DNA of 64,000 nt from Candidatus Dojkabacteria bacterium (GTDB lineage Bacteria > Patescibacteriota > Dojkabacteria > JAOAGR01): the NCBI GenBank assembly GCA_026415655.1, contig JAOAGR010000004.1, positions 134,773 through 198,772 on the forward strand, given 5' to 3'. The translations under genes were made by a program, and so were the position numbers. Below are positions 5,383 to 51,632 of the stretch, piece by piece. The notes under the pieces were generated by a model, which worked only from the letters and a program-made list of their open reading frames with translations, searched no databases and had not been told where the DNA came from. Each line of letters opens with the position of its first letter. Within the stretch, counting starts at the first letter, position 1.

Positions 5383-6556
5383 ATTAGTGAAACTACAACT
5401 TGGAGAAGCAGTAACTTACTCTACAAAGAGAGTAGCTCTAAAGGATGTTCCTCTTCAAAACTATGTAACTACGGATAATCTTTTGCAGAATAAAGCAGGT
5501 GTTACTGAAGCTACTAATTTGCCACCAAATTCTAAAAATGTATCAAAATATGAAAATGGACATATACTTGTCTCAAATATAAGACCTTACCTGAAAAAAA
5601 TATGGTTCGCAAATAGGGAAGGTGGGTGTTCAGCAGATGTATTAAATCTTGAAGTTCGAGAAGGATTTGATCCTATGTTTGTATATTATTCAATATTTGG
5701 TGATGACTTCTTCGACCATATGATGAAGGGTGCGAAAGGATCAAAGATGCCCAGAGGAGATAAGCAGCAGATATTAACGTACCAAATACCCAATATCACA
5801 ATACAAGAACAGCAAACAATCGTCTCTGTTCTTTCTACCCTCGATGCTAAAATCGAACTCAATAACAAAATCGTTGCTGAATTAGAATCTCTGGCAAAAA
5901 CCATTTATGAATATTGGTTTATCCAGTTTGATTTCCCTGATGAAAATGGAAGACCTTATAAATCGAGTGGAGGGAAGATGGTTTGGAGCGAAGCTCTGAA
6001 AAAGGAAATACCAGAGGGATGGGAGGTAAAAAAGGTAGGGGATTTAGTGGATGTAAAAAGAGGTAAAAACATCACAAGAAAAACTGTTGTTGAAGGAGAT
6101 ATACCAGTTATTGCAGCAGGATTAGAGCCAAGTTGTTATCACAATGTTTCAAATACATCCTCACCTGTAATAACAGTTAGTGGATCTGGGGCAAATGCTG
6201 GATATATTCAGCTGCATTATAAAGAAATATGGGCGTCTGATTGTTCATATATTGATCAGACTATGTTTAGCCAAATTCACTTTATGTATTTGTTTTTAAG
6301 AAGTAAACAAAATGAAGTTTACGATATGCAGAAAGGTTCGGCACAACCTCATGTCTACCCGCAAGATATCATGGATATTAAGGTTCTGGTTGATAAAGAA
6401 TTAAAGATGATCTCTAGATTTGAGACACTTGTAGTATCGCTGTATAAACAAATTGGCAAAAGCAAAGTACAAAATCAAAAACTTATAGATCTTCGAGATT
6501 GGCTTTTACCGATGCTTATGAATGGGCAGGTGAGTATCAAAGATAAAATTAGTTAA
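5375..6556 (+). CDS. hsdS: Type I R-M specificity subunit (HsdS)
   Basis: Two target-recognition-domain halves are separated by a conserved central helix (LESLAKTIYEYWFIQFDFPDENG) and end in a conserved C-terminal helix (LIDLRDWLLPMLMNGQV). The protein is 393 aa. Confidence 0.85.
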   Translation: MNKLVKLQLGEAVTYSTKRVALKDVPLQNYVTTDNLLQNKAGVTEATNLPPNSKNVSKYENGHILVSNIRPYLKKIWFANREGGCSADVLNLEVREGFDPMFVYYSIFGDDFFDHMMKGAKGSKMPRGDKQQILTYQIPNITIQEQQTIVSVLSTLDAKIELNNKIVAELESLAKTIYEYWFIQFDFPDENGRPYKSSGGKMVWSEALKKEIPEGWEVKKVGDLVDVKRGKNITRKTVVEGDIPVIAAGLEPSCYHNVSNTSSPVITVSGSGANAGYIQLHYKEIWASDCSYIDQTMFSQIHFMYLFLRSKQNEVYDMQKGSAQPHVYPQDIMDIKVLVDKELKMISRFETLVVSLYKQIGKSKVQNQKLIDLRDWLLPMLMNGQVSIKDKIS

Positions 6557-11949: not shown

Positions 11950-12496
11950 TTATTTATCTTCTTTTTTTGTCATTGATATAGCCATTAATAAGATGTGTAC
12001 AGCATTATTAAAAGCATCTGTTACTCTACCTTCTTGACAAGTTAAACTTTGATGACGTCGTGCAATCGAACTTAGAGGATGGTACTTGCTGTCATTGGGG
12101 TCTATTCTAATTAGGCCTTCTTTTGTAGTAATTTCTATACATTTTTTTGGCCCGTGCTCGTGTATGCTATCTGCTATTGCTTTTATAAAGAGTGCAATTT
12201 CCTCAGGAGGTTGTGGCGGCGTAGATGGCTTTTGACCATCCAACACCATTTCACTTATAAGGTCGCTAACCTGATTAACCCCGACATTCCCAAATTTATT
12301 GTCAGAATTTAGATTACCTCCTCCATCGGAACTATTTCTATGATTTAAAAATTGTATAATTTGTTCTACAGTAGGATCATCTCTTACTACTATATTTCCC
12401 CAAAATTCGTCTAGATTATTCGCATTTAATATTTGTGCTATCTCGTGTTGTGTGAGAGGTTTTATGTGTTCGCTAAAAGGATTTTGCGCTTCGGTG
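11950..12496 (-). CDS. Hypothetical protein. The reading frame stays open about 250 nt upstream of the annotated ATG, so the start is uncertain
   Basis: My translation of the minus strand continues in frame from about 12496 to the stop at 11950 (...NLNSDNKFGNVGVNQVSDLISEMVLDGQK...). There is no canonical start near the upstream end, so this is either a non-canonical start or N-terminal decay. Confidence 0.35.
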
Positions 12497-22301: not shown

Positions 22302-22425
22302 CGGATTATTTGGATTTTATCAGATTATAATAATTTGATTTATTGTTTCACTAATTTTATGCATTTGAATCTTTCCTATTTAACCAGATTAAATATAGAA
22401 ACAGATTATTGCGAGATTACTAAAG

Positions 22426-22453
22426 TGACCTATGGGTTAACCCATAGGTCACG
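22426..22453. repeat. Perfect 28-bp palindrome GTGACCTATGGGTTAACCCATAGGTCAC
   Basis: I checked the reverse complement directly and it is identical. The core is GGTTAACC. Confidence 0.9.
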
Positions 22454-22755
22454 AATCAATATATATTATTGTTTTATAATACAAAATTGAGATTAACGTA
22501 AATAATGTTATTGATGAATAATGAGCTACTGATAATTTGTAATTAATTGATTAATTCATCGGTAAAATATCTCGACGCTTTCTGTGTTGTGATGTAAAAA
22601 TCAATTTTTCATAAAAGATTATTGATAAACTACAAGACTTGGACAGTATGAATACTTATCTAAAAATATTTATATTTAACCACAGGATGTAGGTTTATTT
22701 AGAGGAATGTGTTAGAGTATATATTAAAGTGCGTATTAGAACTTGTATGATAGAT

Positions 22756-22779
22756 CTATGGGTTAACCCATGGGTCACA
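22756..22779. repeat. Second copy of the same palindrome family (ATCTATGGGTTAACCCATGGGTCAC, one arm mismatch)
   Basis: Direct sequence comparison with the 22426 copy. Confidence 0.85.
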
Positions 22780-22844
22780 TAATCATATTAGGAACTAATA
22801 AGTTAACATATTAGAAAATCATGAGGTAAAACTATTGGCAACCC

Positions 22845-22887
22845 ATATAGCAACCCACATAGCAACCCATAGGTTAACCTATGGGTC
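22845..22887. repeat. Three tandem roughly 12-bp iterons (CAACCCATATAG / CAACCCACATAG / CAACCCATAGG) running into the 20-bp perfect palindrome CCCATAGGTTAACCTATGGG
   Basis: Seen directly. The motif family matches the two upstream palindromes but with arm orientation swapped. It lies about 160 bp upstream of the PLD-SNF2 gene. Confidence 0.85.
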
Positions 22888-23047
22888 TTACTACTCTATA
22901 TATTTATCCTTTTATGATTTACATAATTCCCATTTTGTCTTTTTATAGTGTATTGATATATTTAAGTAGATGTGATTTTTAGCTATATAAGAAACTTATT
23001 TTTATTATAAATTTTATTGTAAAATTGAATATACCAAAATTTATTTT

Positions 23048-26000
23048 ATGGCTATACTTATCAATAAGGATGGAAAAGGTCTTGAGGAACGAATTAATGA
23101 ATTGATTTTACGGTCGGACGAGTTGAGATTTTTGGTTGGATTTTTTTATTTTTCTGGATTTCGAGAGATTTATGAAAGCATCAAGAAAAATTCACAATTA
23201 AGAGAAATAAAGGTACTTGTGGGATTAAATGTTGATGAATATAACAATGTATTAGTGGAATATGGTAAAGATTCTGAGACAATTGGCGATAACCTAAAAA
23301 GACGAGTTCAAAAGACAATTGGTCAGACCACCGAAGAAGTTATAACGGAACTTCTGAATAGCTATCGAAAGACATCTAGGCATGAGGATTGCGATACAAA
23401 AGAATTTTATGAAAGTGCGAAACTTTTTTTGGATCTGTTAAGACAATCAAAATTATTAATAAGAAAAACAAAAGAACCGAATCATTCGAAGTTATATTTG
23501 TTTCATCTAATAAATAATACTCCTCCAAATATTGCTATCTTGGGCAGTAGTAATCTGACTAAATCTGGACTCTCTGAAAATTCGGAATTGAATGTAGAAA
23601 TTAGAGATGATGATTATCTGGAAAAGTTAGTTGAGTATTTTGATGAACAATGGATAAATTCGATAGATCTAAATGGAGATGATACTAAACAGAGAATTAT
23701 TGATGTTATAGAGAATAACTCACCGATAAAATCTATTACTCCGTTTGAGGCTTATATTTATATTTTATACCTTTATTATAAAAACAACTTTGTGCATTCA
23801 GATAAAGATGATGAATTAAATAGTTTTTTAGAAAAGAAAGGATATAAACCATTCAAATTTCAATTAGATGCGGTCAATCAAGCTTGCCAGATATTGAATG
23901 AACATAATGGTGTCATATTGGCTGATGTTGTAGGTCTTGGTAAAAGTATAATTGCCTGTTTGATAGGTAAAAAAATAAAATTAAGGGGTATCGTCATAGC
24001 GCCGCCAGGACTCATCGGTGATATAGAGCTAAAAACATCAGGATGGGCAAAATATCTCAATGATTTTGAATTGTATGACTGGGAGATTTTTTCTGCTGGG
24101 AAGCTGGATCAAGCACTGGAGCGGGTCAAGAGTGAAAACTTTGACATAGTGGTGGTAGATGAAGCTCATCGGTTTAGAAATGAAAATACAGAAAGTTATA
24201 CTTATCTACAGTCTATTTGTAGAGGTAAAAAAGTTGTCTTACTCACTGCGACACCATTCAATAACAACCCGTCAGATGTTTTTTCTTATCTGAAGCTTTT
24301 TACCATACCTAAAAAGTCAACGTTGACCGCGAATGGAGATCTTGAGTCAGAATTTCGAGAGATGGAAGATAAGTATCAAAAATTTACGCGTATTTTGAAG
24401 GGTAAGGATAAAGATAAAGATAAAGATAAAGATAAATCGCTAGAAATTTATAAGAAATTATTTCAAGGGGAGAGATATATAGATAATGAAAAATTGAAAA
24501 ATGAATTAAAAAATATATCAATGCGTATAAAGGGAATAATTCAAAAGGTATTGATACGCAGAAATAGAATAGATCTAAAAAATAATCCCTATTATAAAGA
24601 TGAAATCAAGGAATTACCTGTTGTCCATTCACCAAGAGAATGTTTTTTTACTTTGAATAAGGAATTGGATGGTTTTTATGATGATGTACTAAAAGAATAC
24701 TTCGCGGAAGATGGAGTCTTTAAGGGAGCGGTATATAGACCTGATAGATATAAAAAAAAGTATCAGAGCCAAAAACTTATTGAAAATACGACCAACGATC
24801 CCGTATCAGAGATAGCACCTCAGTATAACCTCTATGACTTTATGCGTAGGTTACTTGTGAAAAGATTTGAAAGTTCACTTTTTGCGTTTTACAGAAGCTT
24901 AGAAAATTTTATTAATTTTTATCAAAAGTGTCTTGATTCTATCAACAAAACAAATAGATTTATCTATAACCGTAGCGTGATCGAAGACATTTTGAGAATG
25001 GATATAGATAGTATTGATGAGACTGAACTTAATGAGCGATTGACAAAGATATTGGAGGAAAATGGCGTAGATAAAGAGGACATATATCCCATTGAAAATA
25101 TGCAGGATAGCTTTATTGACGACATAACTAGTGATATTCGACTTTTGGTAGATGTCAAGGATCGACTGGATAAATTGGCAGTGATGGGGAATAATGATCC
25201 AAAAATTTTCGCCCTAAGAGAAAATCTTGATAAAATTTTGAAGCAAGGGGAAAAAGCAATCATCTTTACTGAGTTTGTGGATACTGTCAAATATCTTGCT
25301 GAGAACTTAAATGGTTATAGGATATTTGCAGTGACTGAGAAACCTACAAGACATATATATCAGCAGATCCTTGAGAATTTTGACGCATCGTATCCAAAAG
25401 ATAGGCAGATAAGTGATTTTGATATATTGATTGTTACGGATCGTTTTTCTGAGGGATACAATCTGAATCGTGCTAATCATGTGTTTAATTTTGACATTCC
25501 GTGGAATCCTGTACGTGTTATACAGAGGTTAGGTAGGATCAACCGTATCGGTACTACGCCATATAAAAATCTTTATATATATAATTTTTTTCCAACAACC
25601 AGAGGTGAAGAACAGATAAATCTAAGAAGAACAGCTGAAACGAAGATGTTTATGATACATCGGTGTTTAGTCGAAGATGCAAAGATCTTTTCGGAAGAAG
25701 AGGAACCTACGCCATCCGAGCTTTATAAGAGATTAAATCAAAACCCGGAGGAGTTGGGTGAAGAAGAGTCATTACTTACTAAAGTATCTAAAATCTTGAA
25801 TAGTCATAAAGATGTACAGAGAAAGGTCGAGGATCTACCGCGTTATATCAAGGTTGCTAAGAAATATACGGAAAATAATCTAGTACTAACTGTACAAAGG
25901 GCAAACGGTCTTTACTTTTTTATCAATAACAAAGAACATCCTGTCTCATTGGATGAGGTAATAAAATATATCGAATGTGATCCGGACGAACCTAGATACG

Positions 26001-26428
26001 AATTATCAAATGATTTTTGGACCAATTATCAAAACCTGAAAGACTCGTACCAGAAGTATGCGCATAATCGGTCAGATAAAAGGGATACTAGCACAAGGGG
26101 GGCATTGTCTGATAAAGAAAGAGCAATAAATGTACTCAGGGAGATAATTTCAAAAAACCCCAACTGGTTAGATGAAGATCTCCGAAATTTTCTGGAAAAT
26201 ATTTTGGAGGATCTGATAGAGTACTCGACACTACCCAAAAGGATTGTAAATAGGATCGCTTCTATTAAGCCAAGTAAATTAGCCCATGACAAAAATGCAA
26301 TGTTAAAGATTTTTGAAGAGATCCGTCGTTTTATCAGTCTGGATTATTTTGCGAATGTGATCGAAAGATCCAAACAGACAAAAAGTGAAATTATAATTTG
26401 TATAGAAAATCAGTACCATGGAGGATAA
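23048..26428 (+). CDS. Fusion protein: N-terminal PLD-family (HKD) nuclease domain plus SNF2-family helicase. It resembles DISARM DrmC and DrmD combined
   Basis: The HKD motif is HSKLYLFHLINNTPPNIAILGSSNLTKSG (HxK...GSxN). SNF2 motif I is ILADVVGLGKSIIA and motif II is VVVDEAHRFRN. The helicase C-terminal domain motif VI reads QRLGRINRIGT. The protein is 1126 aa. An in-frame (GATAAA)n microsatellite encodes KDKDKDKDKDK at 24404-24436. Confidence 0.8.
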   Translation: MAILINKDGKGLEERINELILRSDELRFLVGFFYFSGFREIYESIKKNSQLREIKVLVGLNVDEYNNVLVEYGKDSETIGDNLKRRVQKTIGQTTEEVITELLNSYRKTSRHEDCDTKEFYESAKLFLDLLRQSKLLIRKTKEPNHSKLYLFHLINNTPPNIAILGSSNLTKSGLSENSELNVEIRDDDYLEKLVEYFDEQWINSIDLNGDDTKQRIIDVIENNSPIKSITPFEAYIYILYLYYKNNFVHSDKDDELNSFLEKKGYKPFKFQLDAVNQACQILNEHNGVILADVVGLGKSIIACLIGKKIKLRGIVIAPPGLIGDIELKTSGWAKYLNDFELYDWEIFSAGKLDQALERVKSENFDIVVVDEAHRFRNENTESYTYLQSICRGKKVVLLTATPFNNNPSDVFSYLKLFTIPKKSTLTANGDLESEFREMEDKYQKFTRILKGKDKDKDKDKDKSLEIYKKLFQGERYIDNEKLKNELKNISMRIKGIIQKVLIRRNRIDLKNNPYYKDEIKELPVVHSPRECFFTLNKELDGFYDDVLKEYFAEDGVFKGAVYRPDRYKKKYQSQKLIENTTNDPVSEIAPQYNLYDFMRRLLVKRFESSLFAFYRSLENFINFYQKCLDSINKTNRFIYNRSVIEDILRMDIDSIDETELNERLTKILEENGVDKEDIYPIENMQDSFIDDITSDIRLLVDVKDRLDKLAVMGNNDPKIFALRENLDKILKQGEKAIIFTEFVDTVKYLAENLNGYRIFAVTEKPTRHIYQQILENFDASYPKDRQISDFDILIVTDRFSEGYNLNRANHVFNFDIPWNPVRVIQRLGRINRIGTTPYKNLYIYNFFPTTRGEEQINLRRTAETKMFMIHRCLVEDAKIFSEEEEPTPSELYKRLNQNPEELGEEESLLTKVSKILNSHKDVQRKVEDLPRYIKVAKKYTENNLVLTVQRANGLYFFINNKEHPVSLDEVIKYIECDPDEPRYELSNDFWTNYQNLKDSYQKYAHNRSDKRDTSTRGALSDKERAINVLREIISKNPNWLDEDLRNFLENILEDLIEYSTLPKRIVNRIASIKPSKLAHDKNAMLKIFEEIRRFISLDYFANVIERSKQTKSEIIICIENQYHGG

Positions 26429-27122
26429 AAACCAACAAATATTAGAAAATTTTATACATGCTAAGAGTTTTTATGATATTTCCAGGTCATTTATTGATTT
26501 TATTACTGGGAAGACTTCTAATTTTGTTGATTGTAAAAATGAAATAGAAGTATTTGGATATAAGGTCTATCAAATAGGATCAATAGAAGTGGGCAGAAAT
26601 GAGTATATACCGATATTTATTATTGAATTAAGAGAACTAAGCGAAAGAACATCAAGAAAACATCAGTTTGAATTGGGAAAAACAATATTGCGTGGAGAAT
26701 ACTTGTATATAGCTGGTATATTTATATTTTATGATAAAAACGGCAATAAAAGAATAAGTTATATAGAAAAGATATATAAAGATGGTAAGGAACTTTATAC
26801 AACATTTAAGAGATATACCTTCTTCATAAGTGAAAGCCAGACTAATAAAACCTTTCTAAGGCAATTTGCCAGTGGTGATTTTACTAAACAAAAAAGTATA
26901 AGGGAAATCTTTAGTGTAGAAAAAGTAACAAAACAATTTTATCAAGAGATTTCAAGCTGGTATTTTTGGGCACTGAGTCATGTGCGTTTTACAGATGATG
27001 CAGAGAATGAAAAAAATGGCCGCGAGATAGGGATCATTCGTTTTATAACTAGAATAATCTTTGTTTGGTTCATGCGTGAAAAAGGCCTTGTACCAAAGGA
27101 TTTATTTGATTTTAACAAGTAG
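26418..27122 (+). CDS. N-terminal segment of a PglX/DrmMI/MmeI-family adenine methyltransferase, ended by an in-frame TAG
   Basis: It ends in ...IIRFITRIIFVWFMREKGLVPKDLFDFNK*. The downstream ORF is in the same frame and continues the conserved N-terminal region (QNVLKTLDDNESTYYRAILQNLFFATLNTP). The start overlaps the stop of the PLD-SNF2 gene. Confidence 0.6.
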   Translation: MEDKNQQILENFIHAKSFYDISRSFIDFITGKTSNFVDCKNEIEVFGYKVYQIGSIEVGRNEYIPIFIIELRELSERTSRKHQFELGKTILRGEYLYIAGIFIFYDKNGNKRISYIEKIYKDGKELYTTFKRYTFFISESQTNKTFLRQFASGDFTKQKSIREIFSVEKVTKQFYQEISSWYFWALSHVRFTDDAENEKNGREIGIIRFITRIIFVWFMREKGLVPKDLFDFNK

Positions 27123-27140
27123 CAAAATGTATTAAAGACA

Positions 27141-30100
27141 TTGGACGACAATGAAAGTACTTATTATAGGGCTATTTTGCAAAATCTATTTTTTGCGACA
27201 CTAAATACACCTATATCTGAAAGAAAGTTTAGAAAAGAGGAAAGTTTTCATGGGGTAAACGAGCATTACATGAATCATACGTATTTTAGATTTCATGATT
27301 ATTTCAAAAATCCTGATGATATGTTGAACCTGTTTGGGAATATACCTTTTTTGAACGGTGGACTTTTTGAGTGCCTGGATAAAAGGGCAGATGATCCTGA
27401 TAATTACACAGGCAAAGAGATAAGAATAGATGGCTTTTCTGATGTCAAAAGTAAGCAGGTGACATTTCCTAATATTTTGTTCTTTTCTGATGAGGTGACG
27501 GTAGGTCTTGATGAGTTTTTTCCGGATTCGAAAGATAAAAAGAGATATAACGGTGTAAAAATACGAGGACTGATCAATATATTATCTTCATACAAATTTA
27601 CTATTGATGAGAATACTTTGAATGATGAAGAGGTGGCATTGGATCCTGAGCTTTTGGGAAATATCTTTGAGAACCTACTTGCGGCTTATAACCCTGAGAC
27701 TGCTGCAACAGCTCGCAAGGCTACAGGTAGTTATTATACGCCACGAGTTATTGTAGACTACATGGTTACAGAATCTCTGAAAGAATATCTTACCACGCAA
27801 TTTTCTCAACATTATGGGATAGATCAAATGGAAGATTTTAAAGAGAAATTAGAAACACTATTTTCAAGTGAGCATGAAGAAAATCCATTTGATGAGGGAA
27901 TAACCGATTTTTTAATACAAAAAATCAACAAGATAAAAATCATAGATCCTGCCGTGGGTTCCGGAGCTTTTCCGATGGGTATGTTGCACAAGCTGGTTTT
28001 TTTACTGAGTAAATTGGACCCCCATAATGAAAGATGGAAAAGAGAACAGATAGCAATAGTTGAGAAAATAACAGACCCTAAACTAAGACAGAAAATTATT
28101 CAAAAGATTGAGGAGAATTTTCAGCATAATGAACTCGACTATGGGCGAAAATTATATCTAATACAGAATTGCCTTTATGGCGTGGACATTCAGCCCATTG
28201 CTATTCAGATTGCTAAGCTGAGATTTTTTATTTCGTTACTGGTGGATGAAAAATCAAATAACAATAAAGATGAAAACTTTGGCATAGAACCCCTGCCAAA
28301 TCTGGAAACTAAATTGGTAGCGGCTAATACTTTGGTTGCATTACCACAGGAACCCTATCAATGTCTTAAAATGGACGAAATAATTCGTTTAGAAAAAGAT
28401 TTGTTTGAGGTGAGAAATAGTTATTTTACTGCTAATACTCAGAAAGAAAAAAGTAAAATCCAAAAAGAGGATAGAGAGATACGAAATAAATTGAAAAAAC
28501 TCATTGAGGACTATGTGAGCGATAACAAAAACGAATTAAATAAATTGCAAAATGAATTGGAGCAATTACCTGTAAGACTAGAATATGTAGAAGAACGTAC
28601 GCTATTGGAAACTAAAAAAGTCAAAAAAGATGTAAATGAGGAAAAAAGAAACGCACTGATGAATAAAATTAGGGATTTAGAAAACAAAATAAAGGCTGAT
28701 GAGATACTTTTGGAAAGATATAGAAAAGTTGCTGAATACAATATTTTTAATCCTCATATCTCGGAGGTTTGGTTTGATCCTGAGTGGATGTTTGGGGTTG
28801 AGGTAGGTGATGACAAGATTGTTAACAAAGATAAAGATGTATTTGCTTACCATATTACATGGTCAACACATAATAGTAGACGAAAAGAAGATTATGAGCC
28901 GTCAAATACCGAAGGTTATGCACCGGTTTTGTTAAGTTGTGAGGAAAGAAAATATGTTACTAAAATATTAGCCCAAAGAATAGTAAATAAACGATATCGA
29001 GTGCTAGCTCTAAATGTATTAGATGACCATGTACATTTGTTACTAGTTTGTGGGGAAAATGAAATTACAAAAATAGTTGGAGACTTGAAAGGATTTAGTT
29101 CGTATGCCATGTCTCATCTCAACGCAGACGAGGTGCAGAATAGAGAGATGAATTATGGGATCAAAATGACTCAAGGGTTAACTCTTAAGTCATTATCTAA
29201 ATCTGAACGAAAACAAGATTTCGTGACTCTGACTCGTGGGGTAACTTCAGAGTCAATACACGCAACTCCCAAGTCACTAAATGTAATTCCTGAGTCGATA
29301 TGTAATTCCAAATCTGGCGAGTATATTGGGACTGTGACTGAGGGGTTAACCTCAGAGTCAATACACGCGACTCCCAAGTCGCTAAATATAATTCCTGAGT
29401 CGATATGTAATTCCAAATCTGGCGAGTGTATTGGGACTGTGACTGAGGGGTTAACCCCTCAGTCAACAAGCCAATCTTCTCAGTCAACAAGCCAATCTCC
29501 TCAGTCAACAAGCCAATCTCCCCAGTCAACAAGCCAATCTCCTCAGTCAACAAACCAATCTCCTCAGTCAATAAACCAACCTCTCCAGTCAATAAACCAA
29601 TCTCCTTATTCAACAAACCAACCTTCTCAGTCATTAGATCCAACACCTCAGTCATCAGATCTGAATCCTCATTCTAATCGGATATCAATTAATCATTCAT
29701 TTGAAGCTGAAGATATGTACTGTTCAAGTATGCCAGCATACAATGATGGTACAATTTCCAAACTTTGGGCACGTAAATTTGGAAAGGCATTAATTCGTAG
29801 TGAGAAGCATATTGTCAATGCTATCGAATATATCCAAAACAATCATTTGAAGCATAATTTGCCTGAAGTTGATCCTGCGTTATATGAATATGCTCTTACT
29901 TCTTTTGATGATGCATTTAAGAATTTTGTTGTTTCGAAAGGATTTGATATTGTGATTGGAAATCCTCCGTATGTGCAATTACAAAAGGCTTATGACAGCA
30001 GAAATAAATATGCTGATCTCTACAAGAATCAAAATTTTGAAACTTTTGATAGAACCGGAGATTTGTATTGTTTGTTTTATGAAAAAGGAATCCAACTACT

Positions 30101-31142
30101 AAGACAATCAGGCCTCTTGTGTTATATCACTTCGAATAAATGGATGCGTGCAGGATATGGTGAAAAGTTAAGAAATTTCTTTACACAGTATAATCCAAGA
30201 ATTTTGATAGACCTGGGACCTAATGTTTTTGAAAATGCAACGGTTGATACAAATATTTTAATCATCCGAAAAGAACAAAACAAGAATGAGCTTAAAGCAG
30301 TAACAATTAGTGAATCAAAAAAAGATGGGATTGATTTTGCCGATATTTTACAAAAACAAGGCGTTACCGTAACTAAATTAAAACAAGATGCCTGGTTTAT
30401 AGGCAGTGATGCAGAACAAAGCCTGAAAGAAAAAATAGAACGCATCGGCAAACCACTAAAAGATTGGGATGTAAAAATTTATCGTGGAATATTAACTGGC
30501 TTAAACGAAGCCTTTATCATTGACAGTAAAAAGCGAGAAGAGATTCTTGCCAATTGTAGAGATGAAGATGAACGCCGACGCACCGAAGCTATCATAAAAC
30601 CAATTTTGCGTGGCAGGGACATCAAACGGTATTACTACGAGTGGGCGGGGCTGTGGGTGATAATTGCAAAATTTGGCTTCTACAAAGAAGCTCATTTATA
30701 CCCTGCTATAATCAATCATTTATCAAAATACGAGACTCAATTAAAACAAAGAGGGCAATGTCAATATACAAGACAAGGAGCAAAACTAAAAAATCCCGAC
30801 TTTCTCGGACAACATCATTGGCTTGAATTAGATAATAACCCACAAGATTCTTATTTAACTGAGTTTGAGAAGGAGAAGGTGGTGGGGCAAAGAATAACAC
30901 AAGAACCTACGTTTTGTTTAGTTGAACCAAATATCTTAATTCTTGATAGTATGGCATTTTTTACGGGTGAAAATTTAATGTATATTATGGCTATTCTTAA
31001 TTCAAAACTGATTTATAATTATGTAGAAATGATAGTTCATCAGTATGGTTATACAGGTTTTAGATTATCAAATCAGTATGTTGAAATGATGCCCCTTCCC
31101 CCCCATCACTCCATCCAATCAGTCCATAGTAAATCAGATTGA
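27141..31142 (+). CDS. Gamma-class N6-adenine DNA methyltransferase of the PglX/DrmMI/MmeI (Eco57I-like) family, carrying a roughly 570-aa in-frame insertion. The true C-terminus continues to 31305 after a C7 frameshift
   Basis: The NGGLFE motif is present. Motif X is ATGSYYTPRVIVDYMV and motif I is IIDPAVGSGAFPMGML, followed by YGVDIQPIAIQIAKLRF. About 670 aa later comes motif IV, FDIVIGNPPYVQ, then motifs V-VIII (DLYCLFYEKG...LLCYITSNKWM...FENATVDTNILIIRK). The family C-terminal tail IDELVYKLYELTDEEIRQVEERI is encoded at 31144-31305, in the +1 frame past a C7 run at 31098-31104. Confidence 0.8.
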   Translation: MDDNESTYYRAILQNLFFATLNTPISERKFRKEESFHGVNEHYMNHTYFRFHDYFKNPDDMLNLFGNIPFLNGGLFECLDKRADDPDNYTGKEIRIDGFSDVKSKQVTFPNILFFSDEVTVGLDEFFPDSKDKKRYNGVKIRGLINILSSYKFTIDENTLNDEEVALDPELLGNIFENLLAAYNPETAATARKATGSYYTPRVIVDYMVTESLKEYLTTQFSQHYGIDQMEDFKEKLETLFSSEHEENPFDEGITDFLIQKINKIKIIDPAVGSGAFPMGMLHKLVFLLSKLDPHNERWKREQIAIVEKITDPKLRQKIIQKIEENFQHNELDYGRKLYLIQNCLYGVDIQPIAIQIAKLRFFISLLVDEKSNNNKDENFGIEPLPNLETKLVAANTLVALPQEPYQCLKMDEIIRLEKDLFEVRNSYFTANTQKEKSKIQKEDREIRNKLKKLIEDYVSDNKNELNKLQNELEQLPVRLEYVEERTLLETKKVKKDVNEEKRNALMNKIRDLENKIKADEILLERYRKVAEYNIFNPHISEVWFDPEWMFGVEVGDDKIVNKDKDVFAYHITWSTHNSRRKEDYEPSNTEGYAPVLLSCEERKYVTKILAQRIVNKRYRVLALNVLDDHVHLLLVCGENEITKIVGDLKGFSSYAMSHLNADEVQNREMNYGIKMTQGLTLKSLSKSERKQDFVTLTRGVTSESIHATPKSLNVIPESICNSKSGEYIGTVTEGLTSESIHATPKSLNIIPESICNSKSGECIGTVTEGLTPQSTSQSSQSTSQSPQSTSQSPQSTSQSPQSTNQSPQSINQPLQSINQSPYSTNQPSQSLDPTPQSSDLNPHSNRISINHSFEAEDMYCSSMPAYNDGTISKLWARKFGKALIRSEKHIVNAIEYIQNNHLKHNLPEVDPALYEYALTSFDDAFKNFVVSKGFDIVIGNPPYVQLQKAYDSRNKYADLYKNQNFETFDRTGDLYCLFYEKGIQLLRQSGLLCYITSNKWMRAGYGEKLRNFFTQYNPRILIDLGPNVFENATVDTNILIIRKEQNKNELKAVTISESKKDGIDFADILQKQGVTVTKLKQDAWFIGSDAEQSLKEKIERIGKPLKDWDVKIYRGILTGLNEAFIIDSKKREEILANCRDEDERRRTEAIIKPILRGRDIKRYYYEWAGLWVIIAKFGFYKEAHLYPAIINHLSKYETQLKQRGQCQYTRQGAKLKNPDFLGQHHWLELDNNPQDSYLTEFEKEKVVGQRITQEPTFCLVEPNILILDSMAFFTGENLMYIMAILNSKLIYNYVEMIVHQYGYTGFRLSNQYVEMMPLPPHHSIQSVHSKSD
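29223..29438. repeat. Two tandem roughly 105/111-bp direct repeats inside the methyltransferase ORF, each starting with a GGGGTTAAC(C) palindromic element
   Basis: The unit encodes TLTRGVTSESIHATPKSLNVIPESICNSKSGEYIGTV twice. A perfect 24-bp palindrome GACTGAGGGGTTAACCCCTCAGTC sits at 29438-29461, and an imperfect copy is at 29169-29190. Confidence 0.85.
29460..29669. repeat. About 10 tandem 21-bp repeats (CAGTCAACAAGCCAATCTCCT and variants) encoding (P)QSTSQS heptads
   Basis: Seen directly. The repeat is in frame (21 nt = 7 codons) and produces long spurious ORFs on the opposite strand. Confidence 0.85.
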
Positions 31143-31386
31143 GCAATTAGTGGATAAAATCCTTGAAGCAAAACGTAGTGATAAAAACGCAGATACAAGT
31201 CATTGGGAGCATAAGATCGATGAATTGGTGTATAAGTTGTATGAATTAACAGATGAGGAAATAAGGCAGGTAGAGGAGAGAATAGACAAAAATAGAGTTA
31301 ATTAGGTATAAGCGGTTTTTATCTGTTAGACATTTATCGTAATATCAAGTTATAAATTTCTCAGGATTTGATGATTTTTATATTGG

Positions 31387-32835
31387 CTATGCTGCCCTTC
31401 TCATTGCTGCTTTTATACCTTTTCTCAGTTCATGATTATATTCTAGTCTCTGACAAGACAAGGTTATTTGGGATATTAGATGATCTATATCTGCATCTTT
31501 TATATTCTCTCCGTCTTTTATTTTCTTTAATATGTCGGGTGGTATATTTACGGTAACAAGTATCGGTACAGTACTTCCTCTAAGAGTACGTAAAAACTCT
31601 CTGTTTTCTAATAAAGTTCTTAATCTTGTTTTAGGTCTTGTTGTTTGGGTATTGGTTTCATCTTTTGAAACTTCAGAAAATATATTCCTTATAGAACTTC
31701 TGCGGTTTGGGTCCGTTTCTTGAGTATTATTATCTTTACTTTTTGATGAGATGTTACTAGCGGTTTGATTATCTTGATTTTTTAACGAAATGCTGTCAGC
31801 GGTCTGATTATCCTTAGTTTCTGATGAAACGTTATCAGCGGTTGTAACAGGACCGTTCGAATCAGAGATTTTATTATCTTTGCTTTCTGATGAACTTTTA
31901 CCTTTTTCTGTTTGAATAACAAAAAATTCAAACACTGCAAAAAGAGTGTGTGCTATATCTCGTATGTCTTCTTGATCAATTTCTATACTTCCATAATTGG
32001 GATTATCAACATTAGGCGCATCTAAAGTATTTTCTTGATCTTTAGGTGGCGTTTGATTGTTCTTTTCATCATATTTTGTTTTTATTTCAATTACAGTTAA
32101 TTTGACTTTGCTTTTTGCCATCAAATCAAATAGTCTTAATATATCTGAATCAATTCCTGCGGCTGATAGGATATTTTTTCGTATTTTTTTACTCAATTCT
32201 AAGATAAACTCTTTCGTTTCTTCATCTTTTGTGTCATAAGAAAAACCTATCAAGTCAGCTCTTGTGGTCAGAGCGGCTATTGCCCTATGTGTAGGTATTC
32301 CTGTATCTGTTTTTGCATTATCATTGTCATTTGGTACATGTGTAAATGGAAAATATAATCCTATTAATTGAATTAGTTCATCATATTGTTTTTGTATATC
32401 TGGATTTTCCAATTCTATTTTATTTACTTGTTGTCCTGTACCAATTTGTTCAAGGTGTTGCAGTATTTTGCGATAATTGGTAGATACACTTTTTATATAT
32501 TTCTTGACTTTTTCTTCTATACTGTGGTCAATCATCAGTGAAAGTTCATGTAACCAGATCGTTGTAGTTTCTGATTCTTCTTGTGCATCATTTGCTAATC
32601 CTGGTTCGGAATCGGGTCCTACTTGTCTTGATGGATCCTTTATTCTTGGGACCATCTCTGTAGTTGTATTGTAGATTTCGGCGGCTAGTTTTCGTAATCT
32701 ATCTAAAACTTTTTCTGATAATTTTGATTGTGTAGATCTAATATGTTCGATGAAATGGGGACAGGTTGAGAAATTTTTGTTTCCAACTTCATGATCTCCG
32801 TTTTGTATAAATTCGTGTTGTATAATACGTCCCAC
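31387..32835 (-). CDS. Hypothetical protein, 482 aa, with an internal low-complexity Ser/Asp/Asn/Thr/Lys-rich tract. It is convergent with the methyltransferase
   Basis: Long ORF in an AT-rich genome. The repeated SKDN(Q)TA(D/S)SIS-like segment is visible, and I recognise no catalytic motif. Confidence 0.5.
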   Translation of the reverse strand: MGRIIQHEFIQNGDHEVGNKNFSTCPHFIEHIRSTQSKLSEKVLDRLRKLAAEIYNTTTEMVPRIKDPSRQVGPDSEPGLANDAQEESETTTIWLHELSLMIDHSIEEKVKKYIKSVSTNYRKILQHLEQIGTGQQVNKIELENPDIQKQYDELIQLIGLYFPFTHVPNDNDNAKTDTGIPTHRAIAALTTRADLIGFSYDTKDEETKEFILELSKKIRKNILSAAGIDSDILRLFDLMAKSKVKLTVIEIKTKYDEKNNQTPPKDQENTLDAPNVDNPNYGSIEIDQEDIRDIAHTLFAVFEFFVIQTEKGKSSSESKDNKISDSNGPVTTADNVSSETKDNQTADSISLKNQDNQTASNISSKSKDNNTQETDPNRRSSIRNIFSEVSKDETNTQTTRPKTRLRTLLENREFLRTLRGSTVPILVTVNIPPDILKKIKDGENIKDADIDHLISQITLSCQRLEYNHELRKGIKAAMRRAA

Positions 32836-32981: not shown

Positions 32982-33055
32982 TGGCTGGATCGCCTGGATT
33001 CGAACCAGGAAAACCTCCTCCAAAGGGAGGCGTGATACCGTTTCACCACGATCCA
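32982..33055 (-). tRNA. tRNA-Gln (anticodon UUG)
   Basis: It folds into a cloverleaf with acceptor stem U1-A72 plus GGATCG/CGATCC and discriminator G73, both typical Gln identity elements. CCA is encoded. The anticodon loop is CUUUGGA and the T-arm is CCTGG-TTCGAAT-CCAGG. The 3' end faces the defence island. Confidence 0.8.
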
Positions 33056-49514: not shown

Positions 49515-51031
<1,517 letters not shown>

Positions 51032-51457
51032 CTAGGGAGTTAATCATTTTGCTTGCTTCGTCAAGGCAAGCAGACTCATAAGTCTTTGCTGTATGCAAAG
51101 TCGAGTCAAAAAGGGGAATGCTCTTTTTTCTAAGGATTGACTTTCCTGCCACTATTAAGTTGTTAAGAACAATTATATTGTTTCTGTTCGCACTAATTTA
51201 TTGTTAATAAGTTTAGTTTCCTATTGTGTTTTTTTACTGATAAAAACTATTTGTTTGGATTATAAAAGAATATTCGAATTTTAAATTTCAAAGTATTTTC
51301 AATAATTTTACTTTAAATATTGGTTTTATTTTGCTTTTGACCAGAAAGTAGTCGTTGGTTCTCGTTATAATAAATGTGGTATTGATGTCTATAAATTTAT
51401 TTTAAGGTTCTTATTGTTTACATTTGTGTGATTAGAATATATAATTTTCCTTACTTA

Positions 51458-51534
51458 GGGCGTATAGCTCAGCTGGTTAGAGCGCAGTCCTGATAAGACT
51501 GAGGTCCCTTGTTCGAGTCAAGGTACGCCCACCA
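51458..51534 (+). tRNA. tRNA-Ile (anticodon GAU)
   Basis: GGGCGTATAGCTCAGCTGGTTAGAGCGCAGTCCTGATAAGACTGAGGTCCCTTGTTCGAGTCAAGGTACGCCCACCA. CCA is encoded. It lies in the 16S spacer. Confidence 0.9.
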
Positions 51535-51556
51535 TAAATTTGATTTATATCAAAAC

Positions 51557-51632
51557 GGGCCTTTAGCTTAGTTGGTAGAGCGCGTCGTTTGCAACGACGA
51601 GGTCAGGGGTTCGAATCCCCTAGGGTCCACCA
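51557..51632 (+). tRNA. tRNA-Ala (anticodon UGC)
   Basis: GGGCCTTTAGCTTAG...CGTTTGCAACG...GGTTCGAATCCCC...CCA. The G3:U70 Ala identity pair is present. Confidence 0.9.

What the first reader, a model, noticed from the sequence alone, without database searches (positions are those of the whole stretch)
22426..22887. Family of GGTTAACC-core palindromes and iterons upstream of the defence operon and again inside the methyltransferase gene; possible REP-like hairpins matched to the embedded RAYT-like domain
Three copies of a long palindrome lie in the 750-bp leader. They are a 28-bp perfect copy (GTGACCTATGGGTTAACCCATAGGTCAC), a 24-bp imperfect copy, and a 20-bp perfect copy with swapped arms, the last preceded by three tandem CAACCCATA iterons. 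Inside the methyltransferase ORF the same GGGTTAACCC core recurs as a 24-bp perfect palindrome (GACTGAGGGGTTAACCCCTCAGTC, 29438-29461) and as two imperfect copies (29169-29190 and 29337-29361). RAYT/IS200 transposases bind exactly this kind of DNA hairpin. The co-occurrence with a RAYT-like domain suggests a cognate protein-hairpin pair used for regulation or targeting. Alternative readings are operator sites for an unidentified regulator, or relics of a REP/MITE-type element.
Basis: seen in the sequence. Interest (0 to 1): 0.7.

Follow-up and report, generated by a model that had tools for sequence, protein, structure and literature searches.

The report
Hairpin repeats matched to embedded transposase
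A family of DNA hairpin-forming palindromes sits in front of and inside a bacterial defence operon. It belongs with a transposase-like (HUH/Y1) domain built into the operon's methyltransferase, a hairpin-plus-enzyme pairing that recurs in related genes elsewhere and that my limited literature search did not find described.

Summary
Seven copies of GAC-N4-GGGTTAACCC-N4-GTC lie in two places only: three in the 746-bp leader (22425-22886) and four inside the methyltransferase ORF (29168-29465). Chance predicts 0.03 copies in 64 kb.

The ORF copies sit in a loop of a RAYT-like Y1/HUH domain with intact HUH and Tyr motifs. That domain is embedded just before the NPPY motif of a type IIG-like methyltransferase.

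This architecture is recurrent: about 45 of the 150 best relatives share it. Hairpins travel with the domain.
- Standalone relatives are flanked by REP-like hairpins. One family (ACCGTAGGGT-AA-ACCCTACGGT) has the same plan as the window's.
- Another Y1-methyltransferase has its own hairpin family in its leader and trailer.
- Five other loci share with the window a hairpin in the same loop, frame and codon register, kept by compensatory changes.
- Two homologous operons without the Y1 domain have short leaders and no such hairpin family.

The "iterons" are reiterated hairpin arms.

Best reading: locus-restricted REP-like hairpins cognate to the embedded Y1 domain. Binding or cleavage, genome-wide dispersal and any regulatory role are untested. 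The methyltransferase carries a stop codon and a frameshift in this strain.

The parts
22425..22452 (+). P1: 28-bp perfect palindrome GTGACCTATGGGTTAACCCATAGGTCAC in the leader
   Evidence: As ssDNA it folds at -12.9 kcal/mol, z = -6.8.
22753..22778 (+). P2: imperfect copy GATCTATGGGTTAACCCATGGGTCAC; its two mismatches are T.G wobbles on the + strand only
   Evidence: As RNA the + strand folds at -15.2 kcal/mol (z -3.7); the - strand folds at -6.5 (z 0.0).
22838..22873 (+).
   Evidence: The same GCAACC 5' foot occurs in the hairpins of locus L031.
22865..22886 (+). P3: 22-bp perfect palindrome ACCCATAGGTTAACCTATGGGT; it differs from P1 by two compensated base pairs
29168..29191 (+). ORFa: imperfect in-frame copy GACTCAAGGGTTAACTCTTAAGTC
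   Evidence: As ssDNA it folds with z = -5.0.
29231..29254 (+). ORFb: degenerate in-frame copy
   Evidence: 3 mismatches to the family pattern.
29336..29359 (+). ORFc: imperfect in-frame copy GACTGAGGGGTTAACCTCAGAGTC
29440..29465 (+). ORFd: 26-bp perfect palindrome TGACTGAGGGGTTAACCCCTCAGTCA. It is the window's equivalent of the conserved intragenic hairpin 'H1' of this Y1 clade, in the same loop, frame and codon register.
   Evidence: As ssDNA it folds at -12.1 kcal/mol, z = -4.5.
29225..29456 (+). 105-nt (35-codon) coding tandem repeat, 2.2 copies, that multiplies the hairpin
29457..29633 (+). 21-nt coding tandem repeat, 8.4 copies; each unit begins with the right arm of ORFd (CCTCAGTCAAC), so it is a reiterated right arm
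28824..29939 (+). Y1/HUH (RAYT-like) domain embedded in the methyltransferase. HUH motif (DDHVHLLL) is at 29022-29045 and the Tyr motif (NAIEYIQNN) at 29817-29843. The domain is split by about 180 aa of repeats (29160-29696).
   Evidence: Pfam Y1_Tnp 27 bits against a cut-off of 23. NCBIfam REP_Tyr_transpos 52.6 bits. PDB profile hits to ISDra2, IS608 and TnpAREP. Motif positions.
26418..31306 (+). Type IIG-like (Eco57I/MmeI-type) N6-adenine methyltransferase gene. It has an in-frame TAG at 27120-27122 and a frameshift at the C5 run near 31100; its C-terminal tail is in the +1 frame up to 31306.
23048..26428 (+). HKD(PLD)-SNF2 helicase-nuclease, first gene of the operon
22302..23047 (.). 746-bp AT-rich leader between divergent genes, with no ORF longer than 51 aa. 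Homologous operons without the Y1 domain have leaders of about 100-126 bp.

Best explanation
The palindromes are one locus-restricted family of REP-like hairpin elements. They belong with the RAYT-like Y1 (HUH) domain embedded in the operon's methyltransferase.

The ORF copies are an amplified version of a hairpin ('H1') that this Y1 clade carries inside its own coding sequence. H1 lies in the loop between the HUH and Tyr motifs. The leader copies are extragenic siblings, like the hairpins that flank standalone relatives and at least one other Y1-methyltransferase gene.

Proposed mechanism:
- The + strand is probably exposed on the lagging-strand template or during transcription. There each copy folds into a 10-14-bp stem with a TTAA loop.
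- The Y1 domain recognises the stem-loop and its 5' foot (GTGAC/GCAAC), as solved Y1 transposases do.
- Nicking and rejoining at the foot seeded copies locally.
- The same activity, or hairpin-promoted slippage, produced the arm reiterations: a 12-nt left arm x3 in the leader and a 21-nt right arm x8 in the ORF.

Shown: existence, non-randomness, foldability, compensatory variation, intact catalytic motifs, and the comparative association between hairpins and the Y1 domain.

Inferred: ssDNA folding in vivo, binding and cleavage by the domain, the way the copies spread, and any effect on operon expression.
For: 1. Seven copies against 0.03 expected, all in this operon.
2. Differences between copies are compensated. 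Across the window copies plus relatives' hairpins, 90.8% of cells are paired and 7 of 10 pairs change on both sides. There are 23 compensated cells against 9.0 +/- 2.1 in shuffles.
3. The Y1 domain is real. It matches Pfam Y1_Tnp, scores higher on RAYT than on IS200, and matches PDB entries 2xm3, 2a6m and 4er8. HUH and Tyr motifs are kept in 44 of 45 embedded relatives.
4. The closest standalone relatives are flanked by hairpins. L031 has four copies of ACCGTAGGGT-AA/TT-ACCCTACGGT on both sides of the gene, with the same ACC-N3-GGGT...ACCC-N3-GGT plan and GCAACC foot as the window. L021 has CAGTGGGTCAAGACCCACTG and related hairpins.
5. Y1-methyltransferase L024 has one hairpin family in its leader, in its ORF and in its trailer.
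6. H1 lies in the same loop, frame and codon register in L022, L023, L032, L027, L029 and the window. It is 100% paired and 6 of 9 pairs are compensatory. Examples are R..S changing to P..G, and the first base of a K/E/Q codon covarying with the third base of a Leu codon.
7. GC-rich palindromes are about 7 times denser within 600 nt of Y1-coding DNA than in the remaining 125 kb of the nine loci tested (eight relatives' loci plus the window) (Poisson P = 7e-9).
8. Homologous operons without Y1 (L002, L004) have short leaders and no such hairpin family.
Against: - No copy lies outside the operon in 64 kb, so the classical REP hallmark (many dispersed extragenic copies) is not seen. The rest of the genome could not be scanned.
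- The leader copies lie about 6 kb from the Y1 domain, not next to it.
- No copy lies downstream of the methyltransferase.
- Two Y1 loci (L024, L026) lack H1, and L026 has no hairpins at all.
- Hairpins in other loci were found by a palindrome search, so the pairing statistics are partly built in.
- The methyltransferase carries a TAG and a frameshift in this strain. The Y1 domain may therefore not be made here, and the copies could be relics.
- No binding or cleavage data exist.
Confidence: 0.6

Rival explanations
1. Duplex-DNA operator sites. A dimeric or oligomeric transcription factor encoded elsewhere binds the three leader palindromes and the direct repeats to control the defence operon and/or the divergent gene.
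For: - Three palindromes and adjacent direct repeats lie in a long leader between divergent genes.
- Promoter-like hexamers lie downstream of P3 at 22935-22962, and on the minus strand at 22351-22324.
Against: - No DNA-binding regulator is encoded in or beside the operon. The neighbours are an ATE_C/GNAT-like protein and a 482-aa unknown protein, and the leader has no ORF longer than 51 aa.
- The same design recurs four times inside a coding region.
- The middle 3-4 stem positions differ between copies but stay complementary. This is what a hairpin needs, not what a sequence-specific operator needs.
- P2's mismatches are wobble pairs on one strand only.
- Hairpin families track the Y1 domain across unrelated loci, while Y1-less homologous operons have none.
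Confidence: 0.1
2. RNA-level stem-loops. The hairpins act in the sense transcript as a 5'-UTR or intragenic structure that controls mRNA stability, translation rate or autoregulation. DNA cleavage by the Y1 domain would play no part.
For: - All copies fold strongly as RNA: P1 at -22.3 and ORFd at -21.8 kcal/mol.
- P2 folds only in the sense orientation, at -15.2 against -6.5 kcal/mol.
- H1 is conserved in frame within the mRNA of six genes.
Against: - P1 lies about 600 nt upstream of the start codon, and about 500 nt upstream of the best promoter-like site for the operon. It would need an unusually long 5' UTR.
- In L031 the hairpins occur in both orientations (AA and TT loops) on both sides of the gene.
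- In L021 and L024 they lie upstream and downstream of the gene. That is the classical REP/RAYT layout, not that of an mRNA element.
- G.T wobbles are also tolerated in DNA hairpins.
Confidence: 0.15
3. Inert relics. A non-autonomous IS200/IS605-type element (PATE/MITE-like, bounded by P1 and P2 or P3) inserted into the leader, and the ORF copies arose by unrelated slippage. The present Y1 domain would have no functional link to them.
For: - The leader is about 620-650 bp longer than in homologous operons.
- P1 and P2 are 92% identical and 326 nt apart.
- The methyltransferase is disrupted in this strain.
Against: - The segments between the palindromes occur nowhere else in the window or in the collections searched.
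- The ORF and leader copies share both the outer GTGAC...GTCA and the inner GGGTTAACCC.
- ORFd is positionally homologous to H1 of other Y1 domains, which ties the family to the domain.
Confidence: 0.1

Closest known systems
REP / REPIN elements and their RAYT (REP-associated tyrosine transposase), e.g. E. coli TnpAREP (PDB 4er8)
   Same: - Short GC-rich palindromes form stem-loops and vary by compensatory changes.
- They are associated with a single-copy Y1/HUH protein that scores best on the RAYT model.
- Standalone relatives (L031, L021) are flanked by hairpins in both orientations. This is the RAYT hallmark described in PMC5581495.
   Different: - Here the Y1 protein is a domain inside a restriction-modification methyltransferase.
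- Hairpins also lie in frame inside the coding sequence.
- Copies are confined to the locus (7 in one operon, none in the other ~55 kb), not dispersed.
- The domain scores below the RAYT trusted cut-off (52.6 against 80 bits).
- The foot is GTGAC/GCAAC, not GTAG.
IS200/IS605-family TnpA with subterminal imperfect palindromes (IS608, ISDra2; PDB 2a6m, 2vjv, 2xm3)
   Same: - Same HUH/Y1 fold by profile (E = 3e-11 to 2e-5).
- These enzymes recognise ssDNA hairpins and cut beside them. This is established from those structures and is my own background knowledge.
   Different: - No element ends, no second copy, and no tnpB.
- The domain is not an independent gene.
- The hairpin lies between the HUH and Tyr coding segments, not at element termini.
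- The IS200 model scores lower than the RAYT model (37.9 against 52.6 bits).
Rickettsia palindromic elements (RPEs) inserted in frame in protein-coding genes (own knowledge; cited in PMC1779305)
   Same: Palindromic repeats that are translated as part of a host protein and are tolerated in surface loops.
   Different: RPEs are 100-150 bp, dispersed through many unrelated genes, and have no known cognate enzyme. Here the repeats are about 24-28 bp, confined to the gene that encodes a hairpin-binding type of enzyme, and positionally conserved across distant relatives.
Origins of HUH Rep proteins (rolling-circle plasmids, circoviruses, geminiviruses): stem-loop plus adjacent iterons (own knowledge)
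   Same: A hairpin immediately preceded by short direct repeats, next to an HUH enzyme gene.
   Different: - The direct repeats here are copies of the hairpin's own arm.
- The enzyme is of the Y1 transposase type, not the Rep type.
- No replicon is involved; the window is chromosomal and carries a 16S rRNA gene.

Membership tests
REP (repetitive extragenic palindromes) | Short (20-40 nt) palindrome able to form a stable stem-loop | tested here: met
   P1 folds at -12.9 and ORFd at -12.1 kcal/mol as ssDNA, z -6.8 and -4.5. 90.8% of cells are paired across copies.
REP (repetitive extragenic palindromes) | Many copies dispersed through extragenic space of the genome | tested here: not met
   In the 64 kb available, all 7 copies lie in one operon and 4 of them are intragenic. 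The rest of the source genome could not be scanned. The genome-collection scan did not recover the source species.
REP (repetitive extragenic palindromes) | Conserved 5' tetranucleotide (GTAG / GT[AG]G) at the foot of the stem | tested here: inconclusive
   GTGAC precedes P1, ORFc and ORFd. GCAAC precedes P3 and two L031 hairpins. ATGAC precedes ORFa and L031_u1. The foot is similar to GTAG but not identical.
REP (repetitive extragenic palindromes) | Occurrence as inverted doublets (REPIN/BIME) | tested here: inconclusive
   P2 and P3 start 111 nt apart and are 83% complementary. Because each is itself a palindrome, orientation cannot be assigned. L031 shows alternating AA/TT loops.
RAYT (REP-associated tyrosine transposase) | Y1/HUH fold with an HUH motif and a catalytic Tyr in a Y-x3-N helix | tested here: met
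   DDHVHLLL and NAIEYIQNNHLKH are present. Pfam Y1_Tnp scores above its cut-off. The PDB profile matches 2xm3, 2a6m and 4er8.
RAYT (REP-associated tyrosine transposase) | Score above the curated RAYT model cut-off | tested here: not met
   NCBIfam NF047646 scores 52.6 bits against a cut-off of 80. This is still higher than the IS200 model, at 37.9 against 55.
RAYT (REP-associated tyrosine transposase) | Standalone single-copy gene flanked by its REPs | tested here: not met
   The domain is single-copy in the window but is embedded in a methyltransferase ORF. Standalone relatives L031 and L021 do meet this feature.
IS200/IS605 insertion sequence | Discrete element with left-end and right-end subterminal hairpins bracketing tnpA, in several copies | tested here: not met
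   There is one Y1 copy in 64 kb and no element boundaries. The same insertion point in front of GFDxVIGNPPY is shared by about 45 diverged methyltransferases.
Type IIG/IIL-like restriction-modification methyltransferase (Eco57I/MmeI type) | Gamma-class N6-adenine methyltransferase motifs (motif I, NPPY) plus a TaqI_C-type specificity domain | tested here: met
   Pfam Eco57I E = 1.7e-35, N6_Mtase, TaqI_C and MmeI_Mtase. PADLOC REase_MTase_IIG E = 5.5e-136. The gene is disrupted by a TAG and a frameshift in this strain.
Transcription-factor operator | A cognate DNA-binding regulator encoded in the locus, with site sequence (not pairing) conserved | tested here: not met
   No HTH/RHH-type gene is found. 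Stem positions covary instead of being conserved.

The most novel reading that the evidence does not exclude
A class of restriction-modification/defence methyltransferases, which I did not find described, carries a catalytically intact Y1-HUH domain inserted immediately before the NPPY motif. These genes also carry a self-encoded, structure-conserved DNA hairpin inside the domain's own coding sequence.

The domain and hairpin would form a functional cis pair. Two forms are possible. It could be an in-frame, DNA-level mobile cassette that parasitises methyltransferase genes; the Y1 and methyltransferase-core distances are uncorrelated (Mantel r = 0.04). Or it could be a ssDNA-hairpin sensing or processing module that the defence system uses, with the leader copies tying operon control to it.
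Probability: 0.3. Interest if true: 0.85.

Novelty: new variant of a known kind. Interest (0 to 1): 0.66.

Why it matters
What RAYTs do for their hosts is an open question (PMC5581495). Here a RAYT-like domain sits in a defined functional context: a restriction-modification/defence methyltransferase found in dozens of diverged lineages.

It comes with a small set of candidate substrates next to and inside its own gene. That makes the enzyme-hairpin relationship directly testable with a handful of oligonucleotides.

The in-frame hairpin is maintained by compensatory changes that alter the protein sequence. This is a clear case of selection on nucleic-acid structure overriding selection on the protein.

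If the domain acts on these hairpins, it could reveal one of two things: a new way in which defence genes are regulated or rearranged, or a new kind of in-frame selfish cassette.

Tried and rejected
- **Genome-wide dispersal.** One scan of 185,579 species genomes with CCYATRGGTTAACCYATRGG gave 10 single-site loci in unrelated taxa. By my own calculation about 9 are expected by chance. None came from a relative of the window.
- **Metagenome scan.** The 22-nt version gave 6 unrelated loci, one of them a satellite-like tandem array.
- **Viral scans.** They gave 0 and 5 single chance-level hits. The idea that the hairpin is a phage target therefore has no support.
- **Integration site.** I looked for direct repeats linking the leader to the tRNA-Gln at 32982-33055 and found none. 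No integrase is present.
- **Hidden regulator or RNA gene in the leader.** There is no ORF longer than 51 aa, no Rfam family and no terminator.
- **Decayed standalone Y1 gene in the leader.** tblastn gave only insignificant 6-20-aa matches, with best E about 0.06 in an 851-nt database. These arise because P1 translates to VTYGLTHRSR, which resembles the ITWVTHNSR motif. I rejected them as not significant.
- **Recent IS-like insertion of the Y1 domain.** Rejected. The same junction (FGV.VG...YHITW ... GFDIVIGNPPY) is shared with P0127 and P0184, and the insertion point is shared by about 45 methyltransferases.
- **More annotated examples.** tblastn of the Y1 domain against plasmids and phages, and the search for related loci in viral contigs, found nothing.
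- **Literature.** Searches for Y1_Tnp, IS200 or RAYT together with methyltransferase, Eco57I or restriction-modification found no description of this fusion.
Full report
**Observation**

The 746-bp leader (22302-23047) lies between a divergent ATE_C/GNAT-like gene and the first gene of the operon. It holds three palindromes with a GGTTAACC core:
- P1, a 28-bp perfect palindrome at 22425-22452.
- P2, imperfect, at 22753-22778.
- P3, a 22-bp perfect palindrome at 22865-22886.

P3 is preceded by 12-nt units GCAACCCATATA, 2.8 copies (TRF 22838-22871). The third unit is P3's own left arm.

Inside the methyltransferase ORF there are four further copies:
- A 26-bp perfect palindrome at 29440-29465.
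- Imperfect copies at 29168-29191 and 29336-29359.
- A degenerate copy at 29231-29254.

All seven fit GAC-N4-GGGTTAACCC-N4-GTC with at most 3 mismatches, against 0.03 expected by chance. GGTTAACC occurs five times against 0.37 expected, always here. P1, P3 and ORFd are the only GC-rich perfect palindromes with arms of 11 nt or more in 64 kb.

P3 is 22 bp, not 20, and one ORF copy was missed. Otherwise the description stands. The four ORF copies are not independent, because they lie in a 105-nt coding tandem repeat.

**Context**

The operon encodes two proteins:
- An HKD(PLD)-SNF2 helicase-nuclease at 23048-26428. It matches Pfam PLDc_2, SNF2-rel_dom and Helicase_C, and the PADLOC 'HKD+Snf2' candidate.
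- A type IIG-like Eco57I/MmeI-type N6-adenine methyltransferase, from 26418 onward.

The helicase family is very large, and the nearest relatives are 57% and 54% identical. In those two loci (L002, L004):
- the leaders are only about 100-126 bp long;
- the methyltransferases have no Y1 domain;
- the 46.6 kb examined contains no GGTTAACC and no hairpin family.

A nearly identical strain (Logan contig L001) has the same leader. It shows two differences, both outside the hairpins.

**The embedded domain**

Between FDPEWMFGVEVG and GFDIVIGNPPY the methyltransferase contains a Y1_Tnp domain. Pfam scores it at 27 bits against a cut-off of 23. The HUH motif (DDHVHLLL) and the Tyr motif (NAIEYIQNNHLKH) are both intact.

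Further support for the assignment:
- The domain scores higher on the NCBIfam RAYT model (52.6 bits) than on the IS200 model (37.9 bits), though below both cut-offs.
- A profile of the clade matches solved Y1 transposases: ISDra2 TnpA at E = 3e-11, IS608 TnpA, and E. coli TnpAREP at E = 3e-4.

A full HMMER search found 303 relatives. About 45 of the best 150 are methyltransferases with the HUH motif 110-180 aa before NPPY. Precomputed Pfam strings read MmeI_Mtase/Eco57I/Y1_Tnp/Eco57I/TaqI_C. Of these embedded copies, 44 of 45 keep both catalytic motifs.

The architecture is therefore recurrent, not a recent accident. It occurs both in MmeI-like single-chain enzymes and in the helicase-partnered type found in the window (P0127, P0184).

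The loop between the HUH and Tyr motifs is length-variable, at 58-166 aa in relatives. In the window it is about 267 aa, because it holds the 105-nt and 21-nt repeats with the palindromes.

**Hairpins travel with this Y1 clade**

I obtained DNA for nine independent relatives' loci.

Standalone genes:
- L031 (P0126, 45% identical) is flanked by four hairpins, ACCGTAGGGT-AA/TT-ACCCTACGGT, two on each side in alternating orientation. They align without gaps to the window's copies and share the ACC-N3-GGGT...ACCC-N3-GGT plan and the GCAACC/ATGACC foot.
- L021 (P0121) has CAGTGGGTCAAGACCCACTG and three related hairpins around the gene.
- L029 (P0125) has ACATGGGGCTTAAGCCCCATGT inside the ORF.

Embedded genes:
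- L024 (P0141) has CAAGGGGCTGTAGCCCCTTG in its leader, near its 3' end, and twice in its trailer. This is the closest analogue of the window's leader copies.
- L022, L023, L027 and L032 have two to six hairpins inside the ORF.
- Only L026, whose methyltransferase motif is degenerate, has none.

By a uniform definition, GC-rich palindromes are about 7 times denser within 600 nt of Y1-coding DNA than in the remaining 125 kb of nine loci (eight of the relatives' loci plus the window) (15 against 2.1 expected, Poisson P = 7e-9). Several of the 'outside' ones are same-family copies flanking the same gene.

**A conserved intragenic hairpin (H1)**

In L022, L023, L032, L027, the standalone L029 and the window (ORFd), a 9-bp stem lies in the same loop of the domain, in the same reading frame and in the same codon register. 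The encoded peptides are SRKLKLSV, CRELKLSV, ARQLKLSV, HPKLKLGV, HMGLKPHV and TEGLTPQS.

Pairing is 100%. Six of nine pairs change on both sides, with 12 compensated cells against 3.0 +/- 1.5 in shuffles. Some compensations change the protein (R..S to P..G). Others link the first base of a K/E/Q codon to the synonymous third base of a Leu codon. That pattern has no protein-level rationale.

The window's own seven copies, taken with L031 and L029, give 90.8% pairing, and 7 of 10 pairs are compensatory.

Caveat: most hairpins outside the window were found by a palindrome search, which inflates the pairing figures. The shared position, frame and register do not depend on that search.

**The 'iterons'**

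The 12-nt leader units repeat the left arm of P3. The 21-nt ORF units, 8.4 copies at 29457-29633, each begin with the right arm of ORFd (CCTCAGTCAAC).

Both hairpins are thus bordered by reiterations of one of their own arms. This points to slippage or repeated strand transfer at the hairpin, not to a separate class of binding site.

**Strand**

P2's two mismatches are T.G wobbles on the + strand. As RNA the + strand folds at -15.2 kcal/mol (z -3.7), and the - strand at -6.5 (z 0.0).

GC skew is positive throughout the window. The + strand is therefore probably the lagging-strand template, where Y1 enzymes are known to act. That last point is my own background knowledge, and the whole argument is suggestive only.

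**Dispersal**

No copy lies elsewhere in the window. Scans gave the following:
- Species-representative genomes: 10 loci, against about 9 expected by my own calculation.
- Metagenomes: 6 loci.
- Viral contigs: 0 and 5 loci.

None of these scans found relatives or clusters. The source genome itself could not be scanned.

**Interpretation**

The best-supported reading is that these are REP-like hairpins cognate to the embedded RAYT-like domain:
- ORFd and its tandem copies are an amplified H1.
- P1-P3 are extragenic siblings, like those that flank standalone relatives and L024.

Binding and cleavage by the domain, folding in vivo and the route of spread are inferred from what solved Y1 enzymes do.

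The rivals are weaker, for the reasons given under each:
- a duplex operator for an unknown regulator;
- a purely RNA-level structure;
- inert relics of a MITE-like insertion.

The family fails the REP criterion of dispersal and the RAYT criterion of a standalone gene. I therefore file it as working like REP/RAYT, not as a member.

One caution concerns activity in this strain. The methyltransferase has an in-frame TAG at 27120, where L001 has TTG, and a frameshift at a C5 run near 31100. These are either real inactivation or assembly errors.

**Novelty**

Literature searches found no description of a Y1 domain inside restriction-modification methyltransferases, nor of its conserved coding hairpin. 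RAYT biology is as summarised in PMC5581495.

Distances between Y1 domains and between the adjacent methyltransferase cores are uncorrelated across 39 fusion proteins (Mantel r = 0.04, P = 0.22). This is compatible with cassette-like exchange, but also with saturation of the distances.

I rate this a new variant of a known kind, and of real interest because it is directly testable.

Noticed in passing
window 27120-27122: In-frame TAG splits the methyltransferase into 234-aa and 1333-aa ORFs. The near-identical Logan contig L001 has TTG (Leu) at this codon, so this strain's gene is either inactivated or mis-assembled.
   Followed up: partly
window 31098-31306: Frameshift at a C5 run. The conserved C-terminal tail of the methyltransferase (…IDELVYKLYELTDEEIRQVEE…) continues in the +1 frame beyond the apparent stop at 31142, up to 31306.
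   Followed up: partly
window 49515-51632: A 16S rRNA gene is followed by tRNA-Ile and tRNA-Ala, but no 23S rRNA is detected at the Rfam gathering threshold in the remaining 12 kb. The rRNA operon appears split.
   Followed up: no
window 31387-32835 (-) and 32982-33055 (-): A 482-aa ORF of unknown function with 39-nt tandem repeats (31729-31843) lies between the defence operon and a tRNA-Gln. GC content of 24-32 kb (0.33-0.36) is above that of the flanks (0.27-0.29), which is island-like, but no integrase or att repeat was found.
   Followed up: partly
L022 4985-5008 and 5141-5164; L023 5372-5391 and 5475-5498; L032 3779-3857: A second conserved in-frame hairpin position ('H2') lies just after the Tyr motif (NRQLQLSA / NRRLQPSA / QQRASALC). 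It is in inverted orientation relative to H1 and again differs between loci by compensated pairs. In L022, H1 and H2 are 156 nt (52 codons) apart and bracket the segment that encodes the catalytic Tyr.
   Followed up: partly
L027 11736-12401: Immediately downstream of the Y1-methyltransferase P0139 is a second gene, 221 aa with a faint Y1_Tnp hit. It has its own in-ORF palindromes at 12090-12111 and 12129-12156.
   Followed up: no
L024 541-560 and L032 1853-1874: Nearly the same hairpin (CAAGGGGCT-NN-AGCCCCTTG) occurs at Y1-methyltransferase loci from two different samples. Hairpin types may therefore be shared between lineages.
   Followed up: no
L007 3448, L011 1316 (same Ignavibacteriaceae genome), L006 1211, L019 1341: An intergenic 34-bp palindrome family, TTCCTAACCCATRGGTTAACCYATGGGTTAGGAA, with the same 20-bp core as the window's motif and compensated variants. 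It lies in short intergenic gaps. Any relation to a Y1 gene was not examined.
   Followed up: partly
L015 1-440: A metagenome contig carries long tandem arrays of the 11-12-nt unit AACCCATGGGTT, together with other simple repeats. It looks like a eukaryotic satellite and is unrelated to the window.
   Followed up: no
L032 4176-5420: The helicase-partnered Y1-methyltransferase P0127 is interrupted by a Transposase_mut (IS256-like) gene. Its TaqI_C part continues as a separate ORF at 5404-6471.
   Followed up: no
window 24403-24436: A hexanucleotide repeat (TAAAGA x5.7) encodes (KD)n inside the helicase gene. It is in frame and could vary in length.
   Followed up: no
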